A stretch of 63,924 nucleotides of DNA, filler included, from 6 parts of 6 records of this genome joined end to end with filler, not necessarily neighbours in it, one strand, 5' to 3'; positions 24,173 to 29,642 are shown, numbered from the whole stretch's first letter. Made by a program: numbers and translations. Notes: generated by a model from the letters alone, not told the origin.

Positions 24173-26356
24173 TCAGTCACTGATCTTTTCAAAAACAGGA
24201 ATTGCGACCGCCCCGGCACCAATACGCGTGGTCTCGGGTACGTTTGCCAGCTGAAACGGATATTCAATGGGTGCGTTCCTGCTCCAGCTTCGGGCATCGC
24301 TGTCCCAGGTCTCGATGTGATCGGCTGCGGCGCGGGTGACGCACGGTGCGGCCACGCTTGTTCCGGCCATTCTGACCCATGAACCACTGCGAGATCCAGC
24401 GCTCAGCACGCCCAGCAAGACGTAACTATCGTCCCCTTTTGCTGCCAGATCGGGGCCCTTGCGGTCAACCTCATCTTGACCTTCATTCAATGGTCCGGCC
24501 GCAGAATAGGGCGATAGCAATTTCTGCTTGTCTGTATAGGCGGCAACCACGATGGGAGACTCCCCGCACGCAAAACCGTTGATGGTGCTGGATCGCCGAA
24601 CGGGAGACGCGGTGTGAACCGGATCCGTCGCCAAAGGCATGCCGTAACGGTCGAAACGCACATAATCCGGATTGGCGAAATAGGCCTGCCGGCCTCCGGC
24701 TGCATGGCTGCGCAAAGTCTCATCGCGCCGCACCCAGATGTGGATCGGCTGCCTTGGCGCATCCTCGTTTCGCGTAATCCTGATCTTCCAGACCCCGGAC
24801 GGAGCAAGAGCGGCGTGTTTCACGGTTTGGATCGTCGGTGTAATTGACAATGTCACCAGCCCTCGCCCGCTGAATTCAGCTCCCTCACGGTCGGTTGGTA
24901 CAGCTCTGTACGCATAAGACAAGCGTGCGATTTCCGAGTTGCCTCTTCGTGCAAAGCCATCACCTTTTCTGTCGATTTTCCCTTGAGCTTTTTTTCGCTT
25001 GGGGAACACCGCTTTCTGGCCGGGTTGGGTATCGATGGATAAGCTCCGCTTCTCTTGAAACGGCAGGGTCACCTCGATCTTGGCAAAATTCGGTTGATGA
25101 TCCTCCTGGCTTGGAGGCATCCAGATCTCGATATGGGTCGGGGTACGGTCATCGGGCAAAATACGCAGATCAAGTTCGATTTCATCATCTGCATGGGTGC
25201 CATCAGACCCTTCACCCTCAACCAGGGCATGCAGTTGACTGAGGTTGTCATTGCCGGCGGGCAGGACAAGCCACGCTTTCTGATCCGAGGATTTGCCGAA
25301 ATAGTATTCAAACAATGCTGCAAAGACCCCCGACCCATCATGAGGCCCACTGGTGTTGCCGTAAGAAAAATTGAAGACAACCGGTGCAAGCTTGCCTTCC
25401 GCTGTCTTGAACCGCCGAGCCTGTTTTACAAGCATATGGAATGCCAAAGCGGTGCTGGGCAACAGATCCAGACCTGATGTGTCGTCGACCAGACGCGACG
25501 GCAGGACGGCACAAATGATGGGACGGCTTTCATGTTGGTTTTCTTGGGTGGGAGTATTGCCGCAGTCGAGCGATCTTTGTTGCCCCGCAGCCAATGCGGC
25601 CACATGCGTCCCATGCGATCTGCGCAGCGCCACCGCAGAAAATATATCGTTGCCGAAGTCCACTTGTCCTGATCTCTGGTAGAAAAGGTCTTCGTCCAGG
25701 AAATCTCCAAAAGTGCAGTCCTCAAGAAGCTGAGCAATAGCGCCTTTATCCAGAACGCGACCAACGCTTGTGGGGAAATGGTTCTTCGCTGGCGTATCAA
25801 TCAGCTCGCTCTGCACCGGCTCCGCATCAAAAATATGGGCATAATAAATGCGGGTCGACGTGGGATCGGAGCGGAACAAATTGTGCGCGATGGCGATGCT
25901 GTCGTCCACGAAGGCTTGAACAACGGTGCAATCCGAAACCACTATATCGGACATTGGCGGGGCAGATGCGGCCGGATCCAGAAAACGCGCTGGCGTTATA
26001 GCGCCGGTATGAAGGGAGACCACGTATTTGTTGACCGCCTCGAGCTCTCCCTTGTTCAACCGATCGAGCAGCCATTTGCGAAAATAAAACACAACATATT
26101 GCATCTCTCCCTCTTCCTGAGGGACAGATTGTGGAGGTTCGCTTGCGCGGTAGGCAGACGGAAGGATGAAATCCCCGGAATATGGGGAAAGCGCGCCTGC
26201 AAATTCATCGATCGTGCAGTCTTTGAGCTCAATGAGAACTGACCACCAGGAATCGTCTGCGGCCTCCAGGGCATCGGATGTTGGCAGGTGCAGACGGAAA
26301 TCCGTAAGTTCGTCGATCACCGGACGAAAACGGGGTGGTTTTGCTTGCATAGCCAT
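24173..26356 (-). CDS. S8 (subtilisin-like) serine peptidase, cytoplasmic
   Basis: Asp in FVDDSIAIAH, His in HGTHVAALAAG, oxyanion PAGND and Ser in MAGTSVAAP. The likely start is ATG 26356, 1 nt after the upstream TGA. No signal peptide. Confidence 0.88.
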   Translation of the reverse strand: MAMQAKPPRFRPVIDELTDFRLHLPTSDALEAADDSWWSVLIELKDCTIDEFAGALSPYSGDFILPSAYRASEPPQSVPQEEGEMQYVVFYFRKWLLDRLNKGELEAVNKYVVSLHTGAITPARFLDPAASAPPMSDIVVSDCTVVQAFVDDSIAIAHNLFRSDPTSTRIYYAHIFDAEPVQSELIDTPAKNHFPTSVGRVLDKGAIAQLLEDCTFGDFLDEDLFYQRSGQVDFGNDIFSAVALRRSHGTHVAALAAGQQRSLDCGNTPTQENQHESRPIICAVLPSRLVDDTSGLDLLPSTALAFHMLVKQARRFKTAEGKLAPVVFNFSYGNTSGPHDGSGVFAALFEYYFGKSSDQKAWLVLPAGNDNLSQLHALVEGEGSDGTHADDEIELDLRILPDDRTPTHIEIWMPPSQEDHQPNFAKIEVTLPFQEKRSLSIDTQPGQKAVFPKRKKAQGKIDRKGDGFARRGNSEIARLSYAYRAVPTDREGAEFSGRGLVTLSITPTIQTVKHAALAPSGVWKIRITRNEDAPRQPIHIWVRRDETLRSHAAGGRQAYFANPDYVRFDRYGMPLATDPVHTASPVRRSSTINGFACGESPIVVAAYTDKQKLLSPYSAAGPLNEGQDEVDRKGPDLAAKGDDSYVLLGVLSAGSRSGSWVRMAGTSVAAPCVTRAAADHIETWDSDARSWSRNAPIEYPFQLANVPETTRIGAGAVAIPVFEKISD

Positions 26357-26357
26357 A

Positions 26358-27596: not shown

Positions 27597-27626
27597 TGGT
27601 TTACACTCCTATCAAAATTGGCTCTT

Positions 27627-29642
27627 TCAGTTTGGGATGCCTATGGCCCGCAGCATTTCTGCCACTTGGAGACCATTTTTGTACGCTGCGCTGGGGGACG
27701 ATTTCAGCCAATGGCTAACGCGAAGATCAGGCTGATGTCTCAACAATTCAGTTGCTGTTTGACGGGCCTCGAGATGTTGACCGGCGCCTTCATAGGCGAC
27801 AGCCAAAGTCCGCAATGTGGAAACATGGGTGCGGTTCAAGCGCAGCGATTCCTTGGCGAGAATGACTGCACGGGGGAAATCCTGGGCGGAGATGTTTGCA
27901 CCCGCCGCGAGGGCAAGGAAAAAGAACCGGTGCGGATCAAGTGGGGTGAGATGCAGGGCGCGCTCGGTGTCGCGCTTCCCCTCCTGGCCGCGATCCTGAA
28001 ACGAGGCAAGCATGCCACGCAAGGCCAGAGCTTGCGGATCGTTGGGGTTGGATGCCAAGGCCAGATCGTATCGGATCTGGGCCTCTTCCAGGTCATGTGA
28101 CAGATGGGCCAACACCTGACCTTCGCAAACCAGAGCCAACGTATGATCCGGATCCAGATCAAGGGCGCGACTGGTAAGGTTGAGTGCCTCACGGGCCTCG
28201 CTTTGGACGTCATCCGACCACCCCTGGACCACCCGCAACACATGCCACCGGGCCAGCCAGGCAAGAGGAGCGGGATGGTTGGGAGCCTGGGAAATCACAT
28301 AATCCAGATAGCTGCGCGCAAGCTCAAACTCCGTGGGTGAGAGACGGTGCATCAGCCCCACCGCTCCATGCAGGACGCTGAACAGTTTCAGATCATGCAA
28401 CGGTCGGGACCTTACCCGCCGGACTTCATTCGCCAAAATCGCCTTACGGATTTTTCTGACGATATCTTGAACGCCATCACTTTCCCGCAAAAGCGGGTCA
28501 ATCGGCAATGTTATCCGGTCGGACCACAAGACGAACTGGCTCTCGGTTTCAGAGAATTCAAGAAGTACAATCGCTGCATTATCCCGCCGAAAAATAGTGC
28601 CGGACAACATGAAATCAGCGCTCAAAAGCTGGCCCAGGTCACGTAAGTCAAGGGTGGCTCCGCCCAGGTTTCCCGTCGACATGCGGGAAATGATATTCAG
28701 GTCTGTCGATCGGCTCAGGGCGTTGGATATTTCATCGGCCAGAAAAACGCCCAAGAATCTTTCCGGCGTATCAGGCAGCGCGGTAAAGGGGAGTATCGCA
28801 AGGGTTGGAAGGACATCCTTGAGGTCCAGTTGTGGACTGATTTTGGGGACATCGGCGCCGGTGGTCACACGAAAGGAGCGCAAGCCGCCTTGCCCGGAAG
28901 GATGGGCCAATTCGCCAAGGTCGTGAAAGGCCGCATCCACGCCTGGATGGACCATGGTTGCGACCTCAGGAGAGGCAAGGACATCGCCGTCTGCTGCAGT
29001 CTGCAGCAGTCTTTCGATCCTGGTTTCATCATCGGAAACATAATCCACCACAACAGCCCGTTGATGTGTCTTGCTCAGGTGCAAAGCGGCCTGCAAAGCT
29101 GTGCCGATGACATCATAGACAAGGATCGAAACAGGACCCGCACGAGCCGTCACCTTCAGCGGGCGCAATGCCGGTGGGAACGACGCCGCGGCACGCTCCG
29201 CTTCACTGTGTGGCAGGCCGATGGCCAAATGGGCTGTCTTCGCTGCTGAAAAATGATGCGTGACGTCGGCCAACATTGACGGCTCTGTGTCAGGCACCTC
29301 GGTTTGGATCGGTTCGCAATGCAATGCATACCCACGCTTGGGGACCGTCCTAATTATGCTCCGGTCCTCATCACCCAAGGTCCGCCGGATATCAGCGATA
29401 CATTGGGTCAGGCTGTCATCAGTGACTGCAATGCCATTCCAGACCACAGAAATCAGCTCGTCACGGGTTACCAGCGCTCCGCGGGCCTCGGCCAAGCGAA
29501 GCAGTACCAGAGCGGACTGTGAGCGCAGAAATATCTTTGCCCCGGCTGCCGATATGAGCTGCTTGGTGGCGACATGATAGACCATATCACCGATGCGAAG
29601 CCGGTCTGGCGTTCCGCTCCCATCGACCCGACTGTCACTCAC
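27627..29642 (-). CDS. wHTH (OmpR/CadC-type) + degenerate class III cyclase-like + TolB-N-like + TPR regulator
   Basis: LVTRDELISVVWNGIAVTDDSLTQCIADIRRTLGD...IRTVPKRGY (wHTH); A.DGDVLAS...FHDLGE...LRSFRV (cyclase C-terminal-like); PTLAILPF...LADEISNALSR...IISRMS (TolB-N-like); several TPRs (ALDLDPD, ALASNPN, ALHLTPLDP). Confidence 0.87.
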   Translation of the reverse strand: MSDSRVDGSGTPDRLRIGDMVYHVATKQLISAAGAKIFLRSQSALVLLRLAEARGALVTRDELISVVWNGIAVTDDSLTQCIADIRRTLGDEDRSIIRTVPKRGYALHCEPIQTEVPDTEPSMLADVTHHFSAAKTAHLAIGLPHSEAERAAASFPPALRPLKVTARAGPVSILVYDVIGTALQAALHLSKTHQRAVVVDYVSDDETRIERLLQTAADGDVLASPEVATMVHPGVDAAFHDLGELAHPSGQGGLRSFRVTTGADVPKISPQLDLKDVLPTLAILPFTALPDTPERFLGVFLADEISNALSRSTDLNIISRMSTGNLGGATLDLRDLGQLLSADFMLSGTIFRRDNAAIVLLEFSETESQFVLWSDRITLPIDPLLRESDGVQDIVRKIRKAILANEVRRVRSRPLHDLKLFSVLHGAVGLMHRLSPTEFELARSYLDYVISQAPNHPAPLAWLARWHVLRVVQGWSDDVQSEAREALNLTSRALDLDPDHTLALVCEGQVLAHLSHDLEEAQIRYDLALASNPNDPQALALRGMLASFQDRGQEGKRDTERALHLTPLDPHRFFFLALAAGANISAQDFPRAVILAKESLRLNRTHVSTLRTLAVAYEGAGQHLEARQTATELLRHQPDLRVSHWLKSSPSAAYKNGLQVAEMLRAIGIPN

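What the first reader, a model, noticed from the sequence alone, without database searches (positions are those of the whole stretch)
24173..29642. Candidate undescribed three-gene system: TPR sensor-regulator + Tyr-repeat-tagged haloperoxidase/PAP2 enzyme + cytoplasmic S8 protease
Seen in sequence: three co-oriented genes with gaps of 30 nt and 1 nt, sitting between unrelated sugar and signalling loci in an accessory region downstream of tRNA-Ser. None has a signal peptide. The enzyme has complete vanadate/phosphate motifs and the protease has an intact D/H/N/S catalytic set. Established: S8 proteases act as RiPP maturases and as effectors in bacterial conflict or defence systems, and vanadium haloperoxidases halogenate electron-rich aromatics such as tyrosine. 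Inference: this is one functional module. Model A is a RiPP-like pathway with the precursor fused to its modifying enzyme, in which the (SAY)9 Tyr residues are halogenated or cross-linked and released by the S8. Model B is a protease-gated signalling or defence switch, in which the TPR protein senses a cue and S8 cleavage of the repeat activates or assembles the enzyme. I know of no characterised system with this architecture.
Basis: partly seen in the sequence, partly recalled or inferred. Interest (0 to 1): 0.88.

Follow-up and report, generated by a model that had tools for sequence, protein, structure and literature searches.

The report
Repeat-tailed phosphatase, protease, TPR reader cassette
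The three flagged genes are a real, widespread and apparently undescribed bacterial cassette in which a phosphatase starts with a run of identical three-residue units that a neighbouring sensor protein seems to read like a key in a lock, with a spore-protease-like enzyme as the likely switch.

Summary
The reported tRNA-Ser was not found. The order sensor, PAP2 phosphatase, S8 protease holds in every one of the 77 related loci (of 80) whose contig reaches all three genes, and flanks vary.

79 of 81 PAP2 genes begin with 6-18 tandem tripeptides, in 30 unit types. Within arrays, 1105 of 2448 codons differ synonymously and 107 non-synonymously.

In a scan of 1407 alignment columns, the two clear outliers both lie in the sensor's TPR domain. 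Residue 656 tracks tail position 3 and residue 509 tracks position 1. Independent-pair tests gave 0 reversals. The window fits: SAY with Q509 and N656. The protease has a Clostridium Csp fold, and no protease column tracks the tail. The sensor's output is a DNA-binding domain here and a nucleotide cyclase in relatives.

Best reading: a cytoplasmic switch in which the TPR reads the enzyme's tail and the protease gates it. Binding and cleavage are inferred, not shown. The tyrosine-halogenation RiPP model does not fit.

Five literature searches and PADLOC found no description. This scan had already noted the module in seven other genomes.

The parts
27627..29642 (-). Gene 1: signal transducer, 671 aa. 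It has a wHTH, a degenerate cyclase-homology domain, a FlgO-like alpha/beta domain and a TPR array.
   Evidence: ORF; Pfam Trans_reg_C plus TPRs; AF2 model pLDDT 83.7; conserved directly upstream of the PAP2 gene in 79 of 80 loci.
29322..29603 (-). OmpR/CadC-type winged-helix DNA-binding domain (residues 14-107).
   Evidence: PF00486 at residues 36-107; sub-threshold NCBIfam hits to CadC and HilA; strands and helices 14-107 in the model.
28860..29234 (-). Degenerate class III cyclase-homology domain (about residues 137-261). Pfam does not detect it.
   Evidence: hhalign of the wHTH-type profile against the cyclase-type profile aligns window residues 162-671 to cyclase-type positions 63-597, with the catalytic stretch deleted. 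The model shows an alpha/beta fold at 137-261 with pLDDT above 90. PF00211 is present in L060, L074 and L080.
28434..28805 (-). FlgO-like alpha/beta domain (about residues 280-403). Together with the TPR it resembles the sensor domain of CadC.
   Evidence: PF17680 in relative L074; Foldseek hits to the CadC periplasmic domain 3ly7/3ly9, TMt 0.53-0.56 over about 320-330 columns.
27645..28391 (-). TPR array (residues 418-666), the proposed reader of the tail.
   Evidence: Pfam TPR_19, TPR_17 and TPR_2; helix pairs 501-514/518-531 through 607-619/623-636, plus 642-648 and 655-666.
28116..28118 (-). Codon of Q509, in TPR helix A (501-514). This column co-varies with tail position 1 (S here).
   Evidence: MI 1.35 against a next-best 0.94 among 1407 columns, z 4.4. 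For G paired with F/H: 39 of 39 loci, and 9 of 9 independent pairs agree with 0 opposite, p 0.0039.
27675..27677 (-). Codon of N656, at the start of the last helix. This column co-varies with tail position 3 (Y here).
   Evidence: MI 1.64 against a next-best 1.16, z 4.2. Y pairs with N/T in 23 of 23 loci, F with V/I in 28 of 28, L with L/M in 16 of 18. Independent pairs: 7/0, 8.1/0 and 5.8/0.
26358..27596 (-). Gene 2: soluble PAP2-fold phosphatase, 412 aa.
   Evidence: PF01569; acid phosphatase 7f17, E 6.9e-8; motif residues invariant.
27498..27578 (-). N-terminal tail: nine perfect SAY units (residues 7-33), after the leader MSILPQ and before GTPGAGNPLL...TNRDG.
   Evidence: The same feature is present in 78 of 80 related loci with 30 unit types. 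It is flanked by conserved P (62 of 78) and E/Q (64 of 78).
26667..27005 (-). PAP2 catalytic core (residues 198-310) with KX6RP, PSGH and RX5HX3D.
24173..26356 (-). Gene 3: Csp-like S8 subtilase, 727 aa, with start codon 1 nt after the PAP2 stop codon.
   Evidence: PF00082; AF2 pLDDT 84.2, pTM 0.90; Foldseek top hits CspA 9pr9 (E 1.1e-22), CspB 4i0w (E 1.6e-21) and CspC 6mw4, with the next family at E 4e-6.
25994..26311 (-). N-terminal beta-alpha-beta prodomain-like region of the S8 (about residues 16-121).
   Evidence: Secondary structure; alignments to Csp chains span 602-740 columns of the 727-residue model. Autoprocessing was not tested.
24728..25183 (-). All-beta insertion (about residues 392-543) between the oxyanion Asn369 and Ser667, in the position of the Csp jelly-roll.
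   Evidence: Strands 392-543; Csp fold match.
29643..30442 (.). 800-nt region upstream of gene 1: a presumed promoter or operator region. In many close relatives a fourth gene sits in this position.
   Evidence: No ORF related to the fourth gene is present here. There are short direct and inverted repeats of unproven meaning. The consensus promoter scan is at chance level.

Best explanation
The three genes form a horizontally mobile, cytoplasmic signalling cassette. Gene 2 is an active PAP2-fold phosphatase whose N-terminus carries a genetically encoded, multivalent peptide 'address' of nine SAY units. Gene 1 is a one-component transducer. Its C-terminal TPR array reads that address directly: Q509 is matched to unit position 1 and N656 to position 3. 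In this window its output is a CadC/OmpR-type DNA-binding domain; in relatives it is a class III nucleotide cyclase. Both output types work as dimers or oligomers, so a repeat tail that can hold several readers would switch them by clustering, or would sequester them. Gene 3 is a Csp-like subtilase with a retained prodomain-like region. By analogy with CspB acting on pro-SleC, it cuts the tail or its conserved junction. That cut would uncouple enzyme from transducer and probably change the phosphatase's activity.

Shown here by computation: the conserved synteny, the tail and the selection acting on it, the two co-varying reader residues, the Csp fold, the intact active sites and the output-domain swap.

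Inferred: physical binding, the cleavage and its site, the direction of the switch, the phosphatase's substrate and the natural stimulus.
For: Synteny: of 585 relatives found, the best 80 loci were kept. REG, PAP2 and S8 lie on one strand in that order wherever the contig allows. S8 is present in 78 of 80 and REG in 79 of 80; the 3 misses are at contig ends. All-against-all clustering of 4019 ORFs finds only these three families in nearly all loci.

Tail: 79 of 81 sources carry a perfect tandem tripeptide array of 6-18 units (median 10), with 30 unit types. 765 of 816 units are perfect. Of 2448 codons, 1105 differ from the array consensus synonymously and 107 non-synonymously.

Reader residues: in a scan of 1407 columns of all three proteins, the two clear outliers are REG 656 against tail position 3 (MI 1.64, next 1.16) and REG 509 against tail position 1 (MI 1.35, next 0.94). 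Neighbouring columns are at background. Pairings are Y with N/T 23 of 23, F with V/I 28 of 28, L with L/M 16 of 18, G with F/H 39 of 39.

Phylogenetically independent pairs: 7 same / 0 opposite (p 0.016), 8.1/0 of 9 (p 0.008), 5.8/0 of 6 (p 0.03), 9/0 of 9 (p 0.004). The control column 655 gave 0.6/0.4.

Position of the residues: 509 lies in a TPR A-helix. That A-helices line the ligand groove is recalled, not tested.

Close pair L019 (GAF) and L021 (GAY): DNA is 93-99% identical over most of 7 kb except a sharp 68-73% tract covering the last ~120 codons of REG plus the tail (smaller dips to 75-77% lie near the start and linker of REG).

Out-of-sample loci from another order: G with F 8 of 8, F with V/I 3 of 3, A with T 4 of 4.

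Two modules in one assembly (L018 GAY with T656; L063 GAF with V656) differ in both key and reader.

S8: Csp fold and invariant D/H/N/S. Output swap between wHTH and cyclase around a conserved FlgO-like plus TPR core.
Against: There is no direct evidence of binding or cleavage.

The L019/L021 case is itself a recombined tract.

On whole-region trees the TPR end does not track the tail better than other regions: 38 changes against 39-41. The pairwise region test is modest: 15 same-tail against 9 different-tail pairs, p 0.0245. L028/L032 change tail (GGL/GGF) without extra TPR divergence.

Position 2 against REG 612 is not significant, p 0.25.

Out of sample the position-3 rule fails for aliphatic tails: L with L/M in 1 of 4, and V tails pair with T rather than I in 2 of 2. 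If GMH is read in that phase, 2 loci break the G with F/H rule.

No S8 column co-varies with the tail, so S8 may not recognise the repeat at all.

In 4 of 30 loci from the second sample no REG lies within 1.5 kb upstream.
Confidence: 0.55

Rival explanations
1. RRNPP-like peptide signalling. The S8 cuts the tail into free short peptides, and these peptides, rather than the intact tail, are the ligands of the TPR groove. They could act inside the cell, or after export and re-import, giving strain-specific quorum or kin signals.
For: The same co-variation data fit a free-peptide ligand equally well. The many unit types, fast turnover (38-41 changes among 77 loci) and the recombined key-plus-reader tract resemble pherotype loci (recalled). 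Tandem copies would give many ligands per precursor.
Against: There is no exporter, permease or signal peptide in the cassette or conserved next to it. No S8 column tracks the unit, although a protease cutting inside variable repeats would be expected to adapt. It leaves unexplained why the ligand is fused to a strictly conserved enzyme. Gene 1 matched no RRNPP-specific model.
Confidence: 0.2
2. Plain zymogen activation. The tail is a pro-segment that keeps the phosphatase inactive or mis-localised, and the Csp-like S8 removes it as CspB does for pro-SleC. Gene 1 is only the transcriptional or cNMP regulator of the pair, and the co-variation is hitch-hiking.
For: Csp fold of the S8; tight translational coupling with a 1-nt gap; conserved P-E before the repeats and an [E/N]-S-P motif after them, which could be processing sites; reader and tail are adjacent in the DNA.
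Against: Hitch-hiking predicts raised MI across the whole linked stretch. Instead, single columns stand out (656 at 1.64 while 650-662 are at most 0.93; 509 at 1.35 while 500-520 are at most 0.76). The pairings recur in independent lineages with 0 reversals. A pro-segment need not be a perfect repeat held under strong purifying selection.
Confidence: 0.1
3. Conflict or anti-phage defence cassette. An invader cue triggers the S8. The freed phosphatase, or in relatives the cyclase signal, then harms the cell or the invader. The variable key and reader reflect an arms race.
For: Patchy distribution: 29 of 401 genomes sampled in one order. Variable flanks. One copy lies on a plasmid record (L029). 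G+C is slightly lower than the flanks, 0.54-0.56 against about 0.60. The specificity region is hypervariable. There is a weak PADLOC 'subtilase' hit, E 3.1e-5.
Against: The PAP2 and gene-1 proteins have no PADLOC hit. The window's neighbours are sugar-catabolism and c-di-GMP genes, not defence genes. Key and reader are both encoded by the host, so the variation is internal matching rather than obviously directed at an invader. This reading is compatible with the best explanation rather than exclusive of it.
Confidence: 0.1
4. Fused-precursor RiPP pathway. The PAP2/haloperoxidase-like domain modifies its own tail residues, for example by Tyr halogenation, and the S8 releases the product.
For: Enzymes fused to their own core-peptide repeats exist in other RiPP classes (recalled: plant BURP cyclases, borosins). 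S8 proteases mature RiPPs; EpiP and PagA appear among distant fold hits. The PAP2 motif set is shared with vanadium haloperoxidases (recalled).
Against: Units such as GGL, GGV, GGA, SSL, NAL and GSL offer no common modifiable side chain, yet the enzyme core is invariant. The closest solved relatives by sequence are acid phosphatases. There is no transporter or other tailoring gene. It does not explain why TPR residues track the unit.
Confidence: 0.03
5. Tripeptidyl 'fuse'. The S8 removes tripeptides one by one from the free N-terminus, acting as a timer.
For: The repeat period is 3 in most loci. The repeats start 6 or 10 residues from the start Met in 53 of 79 arrays. AAF-type units resemble classical subtilase substrates (recalled).
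Against: The fold is Csp-like, not tripeptidyl-peptidase-like. Leader lengths of 6 and 10 residues put the repeats in different registers. Period-4 tails exist (GGGH, GGES). No S8 column tracks the unit.
Confidence: 0.03

Closest known systems
RRNPP peptide receptors of Firmicutes and their phages (Rap-Phr, NprR-NprX, PlcR-PapR, PrgX, AimR-AimP)
   Same: A cytoplasmic TPR domain, joined to an output domain, reads a short genetically encoded peptide. Receptor and peptide genes are adjacent and diversify together into many specificities. Proteases mature the peptide. (Titles and abstract starts of PMC3601965 and PMC3601957 were seen in the listing; the rest is recalled.)
   Different: Here the peptide is a tandem array fused to the N-terminus of a conserved enzyme, not a small secreted pro-peptide. 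No export or import genes are present. The DNA-binding domain is OmpR/CadC-type winged helix, or the output is a cyclase. The module is alphaproteobacterial. Gene 1 matched no RRNPP-specific model in Pfam or NCBIfam.
Clostridial germination subtilases CspB/CspA/CspC and their substrate pro-SleC (PDB 4i0w, 9pr9, 9pr8, 6mw4)
   Same: They are the best structural match of the S8 (E 1e-22 to 1e-18, TMt 0.66-0.75). The N-terminal prodomain-like region and the large beta insertion are in the same places. In the Csp system the protease activates a neighbouring enzyme by removing an N-terminal pro-region (recalled).
   Different: Sequence identity is only 13-18%. The substrate candidate is a phosphatase, not a cortex hydrolase. 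The host is not a spore former. All 48 sequences keep the catalytic set, so none is a pseudoprotease. Cleavage is untested.
CadC/ToxR-type one-component regulators
   Same: An N-terminal OmpR-type winged helix (sub-threshold NCBIfam CadC hit, 58 bits). The alpha/beta plus helical-repeat sensor part resembles the CadC periplasmic domain (3ly7/3ly9, TMt 0.53-0.56).
   Different: There is no transmembrane segment. A degenerate cyclase-homology domain is inserted. The sensor is predicted to be cytoplasmic and to read a protein tail rather than pH or cadaverine. NCBIfam scores are far below the cut-offs.
TPR readers of short terminal peptides (PEX5 with the PTS1 tripeptide, Hop with EEVD, CheR-TPR with the receptor pentapeptide)
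   Same: A TPR groove recognises a few residues at a protein terminus. PEX5 and Hop TPRs are among the fold hits. The CheR-TPR paper PMC3447774 was seen in the listing.
   Different: Those motifs are single, C-terminal and conserved. Here the motif is N-terminal, repeated 6-18 times and hypervariable between strains.
Class III adenylate/guanylate cyclase-TPR proteins of Alphaproteobacteria
   Same: Relatives' gene 1 has PF00211 followed by the same FlgO-like plus TPR core.
   Different: In the window the cyclase domain is degenerate and a DNA-binding domain has been added. I found no description of a ligand for such cyclase-TPR proteins.

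Membership tests
PAP2 superfamily (PF01569) | Three motifs: KX6RP, PSGH and (S)RX5HX3D | tested here: met
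   Pfam E 6.1e-13, above the cut-off. K213, R220, P221, P241-S242-G243-H244, R288, H294 and D298 are invariant in 24 sequences and present in the window.
Vanadium-dependent haloperoxidase | Vanadate cofactor and halide oxidation; shares the PAP2 motif set | not testable with these tools
   The motifs do not separate the two chemistries (recalled). The nearest solved sequences are acid phosphatases (7f17, E 6.9e-8). Some relatives carry a precomputed PF22778 hit whose name no call showed. Tail diversity argues against Tyr halogenation as the conserved role.
Peptidase S8 (subtilases) | Catalytic Asp-His-Ser in that order, plus the oxyanion Asn | tested here: met
   PF00082 E 2.4e-13. D151, H248, N369 and S667 are invariant in 48 sequences.
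Csp-type subtilases | Subtilase core with a retained N-terminal prodomain and a jelly-roll insertion | tested here: met
   Predicted fold only. The top 10 Foldseek hits are all CspA, CspB or CspC (E 1.1e-22 to 2.6e-18), with the next family at 4e-6. The beta-alpha-beta N-domain and the all-beta insert are seen.
Csp-type subtilases | Role in spore germination, with pro-SleC as substrate | tested here: not met
   The neighbour is a PAP2 phosphatase. The loci come from Alphaproteobacteria and one Burkholderiales MAG. The NCBIfam CspBA score is 11.6 bits against a cut-off of 1250.
RRNPP quorum-sensing receptors | An HTH (or Rap-type) N-domain plus TPR that binds a secreted, re-imported oligopeptide made from a small adjacent gene | tested here: not met
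   Gene 1 matched only generic TPR and Trans_reg_C models. The candidate peptide is fused to an enzyme. There is no signal peptide. The working principle (TPR reads an encoded peptide) is supported by co-variation.
SARP regulators | OmpR-type wHTH followed by a BTAD domain | tested here: not met
   No BTAD family appears among the Pfam hits at E 0.1 or better. A degenerate cyclase-homology domain follows the wHTH instead.
Class III nucleotide cyclases | Intact Guanylate_cyc catalytic domain | tested here: not met
   The window protein has no PF00211 hit. hhalign shows homology only from position 63 of the cyclase-type profile, with the catalytic stretch deleted. The domain is intact in relatives L060, L074 and L080.
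Known anti-phage defence systems (PADLOC-DB 2.0.0) | Protein matches to the system's models | tested here: not met
   The only hit is a weak 'subtilase' match for the S8 (E 3.1e-5). The other two proteins have none.
RiPP pathways with a fused precursor | Post-translational modification of the core repeats by the fused enzyme | not testable with these tools
   Indirect evidence against: the unit chemistry is not conserved.

The most novel reading that the evidence does not exclude
The cassette is a previously unrecognised kind of intracellular signalling. It uses a programmable peptide 'barcode': an enzyme's N-terminal tandem-tripeptide tail is the key, and a TPR array is the lock, with a near one-residue-per-position recognition code (position 1 read by residue 509, position 3 by residue 656). 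Dozens of mutually insulated key-lock alleles are exchanged as a small recombining unit. A Csp-like protease turns recognition into an irreversible switch of transcription or cyclic-nucleotide synthesis. If so, bacteria hold a natural, re-targetable peptide-recognition code for TPR domains, and several orthogonal copies can run in one cell.
Probability: 0.35. Interest if true: 0.92.

Novelty: categorically new. Interest (0 to 1): 0.85.

Why it matters
The result points to an unstudied signalling module that is common in marine and soil Alphaproteobacteria. In one order, 29 of 401 sampled genomes carry it, and more than 585 relatives were found in species-representative genomes.

It would give a function to the many 'orphan' cyclase-TPR and wHTH-TPR proteins. 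It would show a non-sporulating role for Csp-type subtilases.

If the residue-to-residue pairing holds, it would supply a simple natural code for engineering orthogonal peptide-TPR pairs.

It also makes a concrete question testable: how a cell uses a multivalent, genetically encoded ligand fused to an enzyme to control dimerisation-dependent outputs.

Tried and rejected
1. Complex prediction with TPR residues 401-671 plus tail residues 1-60 returned no verdict: score 0.01, the partner was disordered and the alignment was not used. It is not evidence either way.

2. The look-up of sequencing runs listed no RNA holder. It listed only DNA metagenome contigs holding 0.05-0.38 of the sampled words. 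I laid no reads, so nothing can be said on expression.

3. No whole genome is held for the window, so copy number and the rest of the genome could not be examined.

4. Whole-region parsimony showed that the TPR end does not track the tail better than other regions (38 against 39-41 changes). The signal sits in single columns, not in the region as a whole.

5. Tail position 2 against REG 612 looked promising by MI (0.91 against 0.86) but failed the independent-pair test, p 0.25.

6. The tripeptidyl-peptidase 'fuse' idea was dropped after the Csp fold match and the mixed leader registers.

7. The promoter and terminator consensus scan was at chance level: 3 promoter-like sites found against 3.2 expected. 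The short repeats upstream of gene 1 were not compared across loci, so no operator is claimed.

8. The fourth gene seen in relatives was sought in the window and not found.

9. Literature: searches returned 0 papers. One search returned 6 unrelated papers (5 listed); I read the two PAP2 passages of PMC12419801, which do not concern this module. One search returned RRNPP and TPR papers only. Subscription journals and supplementary files were not searchable.

Full report
OBSERVATION

The window holds three co-oriented minus-strand ORFs. They are 27627-29642 (671 aa), 26358-27596 (412 aa) and 24173-26356 (727 aa from the ATG that lies 1 nt after the PAP2 stop; the frame is also open back to 26521). 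The gaps are 30 nt and 1 nt.

Pfam assigns Trans_reg_C plus several TPR families to the first ORF, PAP2 to the second and Peptidase_S8 to the third, all above their cut-offs. NCBIfam gives only sub-threshold hits, to CadC and HilA for the wHTH and to CspBA for the S8. PADLOC gives one weak 'subtilase' hit (E 3.1e-5) and nothing for the other two proteins.

Residues 7-33 of the PAP2 protein are nine perfect SAY units. The PAP2 motif residues and the S8 D151/H248/N369/S667 set are present. A crude hydropathy scan finds no signal-like or membrane segment.

The flanks are a sugar-uptake and catabolism block on one side: DeoR, ABC transporter, fucose-isomerase-like, split transketolase and FGGY kinase. 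On the other side are GAF-GGDEF-EAL, GST, DHDPS-like and dehydratase genes. G+C over the module is 0.54-0.56, against about 0.60 in the adjoining blocks.

The one part of the observation I could not confirm is the tRNA-Ser. ARAGORN and Rfam both find nothing in the whole window.

IS IT ONE MODULE?

A protein search with the PAP2 protein found 472 relatives, the best at 59% identity. They come from many Rhodobacterales genera, Roseibium/Labrenzia, Pseudovibrio, Thalassobaculum, Microvirga, Alsobacter, Aestuariivirga and one Burkholderiales MAG.

tblastn with the three window proteins shows the same order on one strand in every locus that reaches far enough. The S8 is present in 78 of 80 loci; L012 and L076 end in the PAP2 gene. 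Gene 1 is present in 79 of 80; L057 begins in the PAP2 gene.

All-against-all clustering of 4019 ORFs from these loci plus the window found only these three families in 79-81 of the 81 sources. The other large clusters are antisense shadows of the three genes.

A fourth family of about 215 aa, with no Pfam hit, lies directly upstream of gene 1 in 29 loci. It is absent from the window. No flanking gene is otherwise shared, so the cassette sits in varying contexts. One locus, L029, is on a plasmid record.

In a second, independent sample of 401 genomes from the order of L074, 29 carry the PAP2 family at E 1e-40 or better. Among the 30 loci returned, gene 1 lies upstream in 26 and an S8 hit is present in 28. 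The S8 is missing from L100 and L101, which are short, and lies on the opposite strand in L102.

THE TAIL

In 79 of 81 sources the PAP2 ORF begins with a tandem tripeptide array. The two exceptions are L017, which has an imperfect GGQ-GAY-type repeat, and L057, whose N-terminus is cut off by the contig end.

The arrays have 6-18 units, with a median of 10, and 30 different unit types. Examples are SAY, SAF, NAY, NSY, SSY, GAY, GGY, GAF, GGF, SGF, AAF, NAL, DAL, SAL, NGL, GGL, GSL, SSL, GGV, AGI, SGA, KGH and SGH. The second sample adds GGA, GGI, TGV, TGL, QSL, TGH, HGL, GMH, GAR and GGH, plus two period-4 tails, GGGH and GGES.

The common pattern is [small or polar]-[G/A/S]-[Y/F/L/I/V]. The array follows a short leader that ends in P (62 of 78) then E or Q (64 of 78). 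The start Met lies 6 or 10 residues before the first unit in 53 of 79 arrays. After the array comes a G-rich linker with an [E/N]-[S/P]-P motif about ten residues before the conserved TNRDG.

The repeats are held by selection on the peptide, not by recent DNA slippage. In the window the 9-nt period matches at only 81%, and every difference is synonymous. Over all 79 arrays, 765 of 816 units are perfect. Of 2448 codons, 1105 differ from the array's commonest codon synonymously and only 107 non-synonymously.

The unit type nevertheless changes often. At least 38-41 changes are needed on trees of 77 loci, where 29 is the minimum for 30 types. Units differ even within a genus: Tateyamaria loci carry SAY, SSY, DAL, SGY, NAY and GAY.

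WHO READS THE TAIL?

I scored mutual information between each tail position and each of 1407 well-filled alignment columns: 421 from gene 1, 652 from the S8 and 334 from the PAP2 core. Two columns stand clear of the phylogenetic background, and both lie in the TPR part of gene 1.

Tail position 3 pairs with window residue 656 (MI 1.64, z 4.2; the next best column in any protein scores 1.16). Tail position 1 pairs with residue 509 (MI 1.35, z 4.4; next best 0.94). Their neighbours are at background: 650-662 score at most 0.93, and 500-520 at most 0.76. This argues against simple hitch-hiking of a linked stretch.

The contingency tables make chemical sense.

| Tail residue | Paired gene-1 residue (counts) |
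|---|---|
| Position 3 = Y | 656 = N 17, T 6 |
| Position 3 = F | 656 = V 20, I 8 |
| Position 3 = L | 656 = M 10, L 6, V 2 |
| Position 3 = V | 656 = I 3 |
| Position 3 = A | 656 = T 2 |
| Position 1 = G | 509 = F 31, H 8 |
| Position 1 = S | 509 = Q 10, N 4, aliphatic 5 |
| Position 1 = N | 509 = Q 10, A 2 |
| Position 1 = A | 509 = I, L or M, 5 |

I then used phylogenetically independent pairs on a tree of the concatenated PAP2 core and S8 catalytic region (FastTree, starred branches only). The associations never reverse.

| Association | Same way / opposite | p |
|---|---|---|
| Y with N/T | 7 / 0 | 0.016 |
| F with V/I | 8.1 / 0 (of 9) | 0.008 |
| L with L/M | 5.8 / 0 (of 6) | 0.03 |
| G with F/H | 9 / 0 | 0.004 |
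| S/N/D with Q/N | 6 / 0 (4 unchanged) | 0.03 |
| Control column 655 | 0.6 / 0.4 | not significant |

The window obeys the rules: SAY with Q509 and N656. In the AF2 model of gene 1 (pLDDT 83.7), residue 509 lies in the A-helix of a TPR pair (501-514 / 518-531) and residue 656 lies at the start of the last helix. That A-helices line the ligand groove of TPR superhelices is recalled knowledge, not tested here.

Close relatives show how alleles change. L019 (GAF) and L021 (GAY) are 93-99% identical in DNA over most of the 7 kb compared, except for a sharply bounded tract of 68-73% identity, with smaller dips to 75-77% near the start and the linker of gene 1. The tract covers the last ~120 codons of gene 1, the spacer and the tail. 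The same-tail pair L018/L047 is more conserved there than elsewhere.

One assembly, Tropicibacter sp. R16_0, carries two cassettes that differ in key and reader. L018 is wHTH type with GAY and T656. L063 is cyclase type with GAF and V656.

RESULTS THAT WEAKEN THIS READING

The L019/L021 case is itself such an event.
- Trees of the TPR end need about as many tail changes (38) as trees of the other regions (39-41).
- The region-level test on 24 reciprocal nearest pairs is modest. TPR-end identity minus PAP2-core identity averages +0.055 in 15 same-tail pairs and -0.019 in 9 different-tail pairs (one-sided p 0.0245).
- L028/L032 switch GGL to GGF with no extra TPR divergence beyond column 656.
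- Position 2 against residue 612 fails the independent-pair test, p 0.25.
- Out of sample there were 18 new loci with both parts parsed; the 3 duplicates of earlier loci (L084-L086) were not counted, 4 loci lack an upstream gene 1 and 5 had no PSGH-containing ORF in my parser (L097, L101, L104, L105, L110). G with F holds in 8 of 8, F with V/I in 3 of 3 and A with T in 4 of 4. L with L/M holds in only 1 of 4, and V tails pair with T rather than I in 2 of 2. If GMH/MHG tails are read as GMH, two loci break the G with F/H rule. No Y tail was in this sample.
- The phase of units that lack the P-E anchor is ambiguous.

The code is therefore real for some classes and lineage-dependent for aliphatic residues.

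THE OTHER PARTS

S8. The AF2 model (pLDDT 84.2, pTM 0.90) matches Clostridial CspA, CspB and CspC far better than any other solved subtilase. The top ten hits score E 1.1e-22 to 2.6e-18 with TMt 0.66-0.75. The next family, the C5a peptidases, scores E 4e-6. The model has an N-terminal beta-alpha-beta prodomain-like region and an all-beta insertion between Asn369 and Ser667. The catalytic set is invariant in 48 sequences. No S8 column co-varies with the tail. If the S8 acts on the PAP2 protein, it more likely recognises the conserved junctions than the variable units.

PAP2. The nearest solved sequences are acid phosphatases (7f17, E 6.9e-8). The motif residues are invariant. Sequence cannot separate phosphatase chemistry from vanadate chemistry.

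Gene 1. Distant relatives (L060, L074, L080) start with a class III cyclase domain instead of the wHTH. Profile comparison shows that window residues 162-671 are homologous to the cyclase-type protein from its position 63 onwards, with the catalytic stretch deleted. The window protein is therefore a cyclase-TPR descendant that lost cyclase function and gained a DNA-binding domain. Its alpha/beta plus helical sensor part resembles the CadC periplasmic domain (TMt 0.53-0.56), but no membrane segment is present.

MECHANISM

Shown by computation:
- a conserved, mobile three-gene unit;
- a tail under strong purifying selection yet with rapid allele turnover;
- two reader residues in the TPR domain matched to two tail positions;
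- an intact Csp-like protease;
- an intact phosphatase core;
- interchangeable outputs that both depend on dimerisation or oligomerisation. That OmpR/CadC-type domains and class III cyclases work as dimers is established knowledge, recalled here.

Inferred: the TPR binds the tail. Because the tail is multivalent, it clusters or sequesters the transducer. The protease cuts the tail or a junction and thereby switches both the transducer and the enzyme. I put about 0.7 on direct TPR-tail (or tail-peptide) recognition and about 0.55 on the whole statement. The direction of the switch, the stimulus and the phosphatase substrate are unknown.

Rivals are listed under Rival explanations: free-peptide RRNPP-like signalling, plain zymogen activation with hitch-hiking, a defence role, a RiPP pathway and a tripeptidyl fuse.

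COMPARISON AND NOVELTY

The cassette works like an RRNPP system in that a TPR reads an encoded peptide and key and lock diversify together. It works like the Csp/pro-SleC pair in that a Csp-type protease sits next to an enzyme with an N-terminal extension. It fails the membership tests of both (see Membership tests).

Five full-text searches found no description. Of the papers listed I read only two passages of PMC12419801, which mention PAP2 in other contexts. Subscription journals and supplements were not searchable.

This scan's own notebook shows that the same module was noted before in seven other genomes. Those notes claimed a Csp-like protease and tail-TPR co-variation. I tested both independently here, and I add the two specific reader columns, the independent-pair statistics and an out-of-sample check. 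I class the module as categorically new relative to the published record that I could search.

Noticed in passing
window 9956-11143 (-), within window 1-13000: A 395-aa ORF carries an MCM OB domain (E 7.3e-19). It lies in a stretch of lower G+C (0.48-0.51). This may be an integrated mobile element or prophage remnant.
   Followed up: no
L002:5031-5678, L006:5378-6025 and 27 further loci: A fourth gene of about 215 aa has a conserved 'VFPYYRG.P.EV.P' start and no Pfam hit. It lies directly upstream of gene 1 on the same strand in 29 of the 80 loci and is absent from the window.
   Followed up: partly
L025:11723-16901: Thalassococcus lentus has a second, divergent cassette back-to-back with the first. 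It comprises an S8-like ORF (731 aa), a PAP2-like ORF whose tail is a long (GS)n dipeptide run, and a divergently oriented wHTH-like ORF.
   Followed up: partly
L018 and L063 (same assembly, two contigs): One genome carries two cassettes of different output type (wHTH and cyclase). They have different tails (GAY, GAF) and different residue-656 equivalents (T, V).
   Followed up: partly
L052:11476-13356: A second cyclase-TPR-like ORF (626 aa, 24% identical to window gene 1 over 461 residues) lies just downstream of the S8. No second PAP2 gene follows it.
   Followed up: no
L096, L102, L103, L106: Distant PAP2 relatives have unusual tails: GAR, GGH, and the period-4 units GGGH and GGES. No gene-1 homologue lies within 1.5 kb upstream. 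In L102 the S8 hit is on the opposite strand.
   Followed up: no
window 30443-31072 (+): A 209-aa ORF is divergent from the cassette. It has no Pfam hit and is not conserved next to the cassette in other loci.
   Followed up: no
window 38000-47000: A second stretch of lower G+C (0.50-0.52) lies between blocks of 0.55-0.62. Two ORFs there that I scanned (38084-38743 and, in the other low-G+C stretch, 12202-12867) have no Pfam hit.
   Followed up: no
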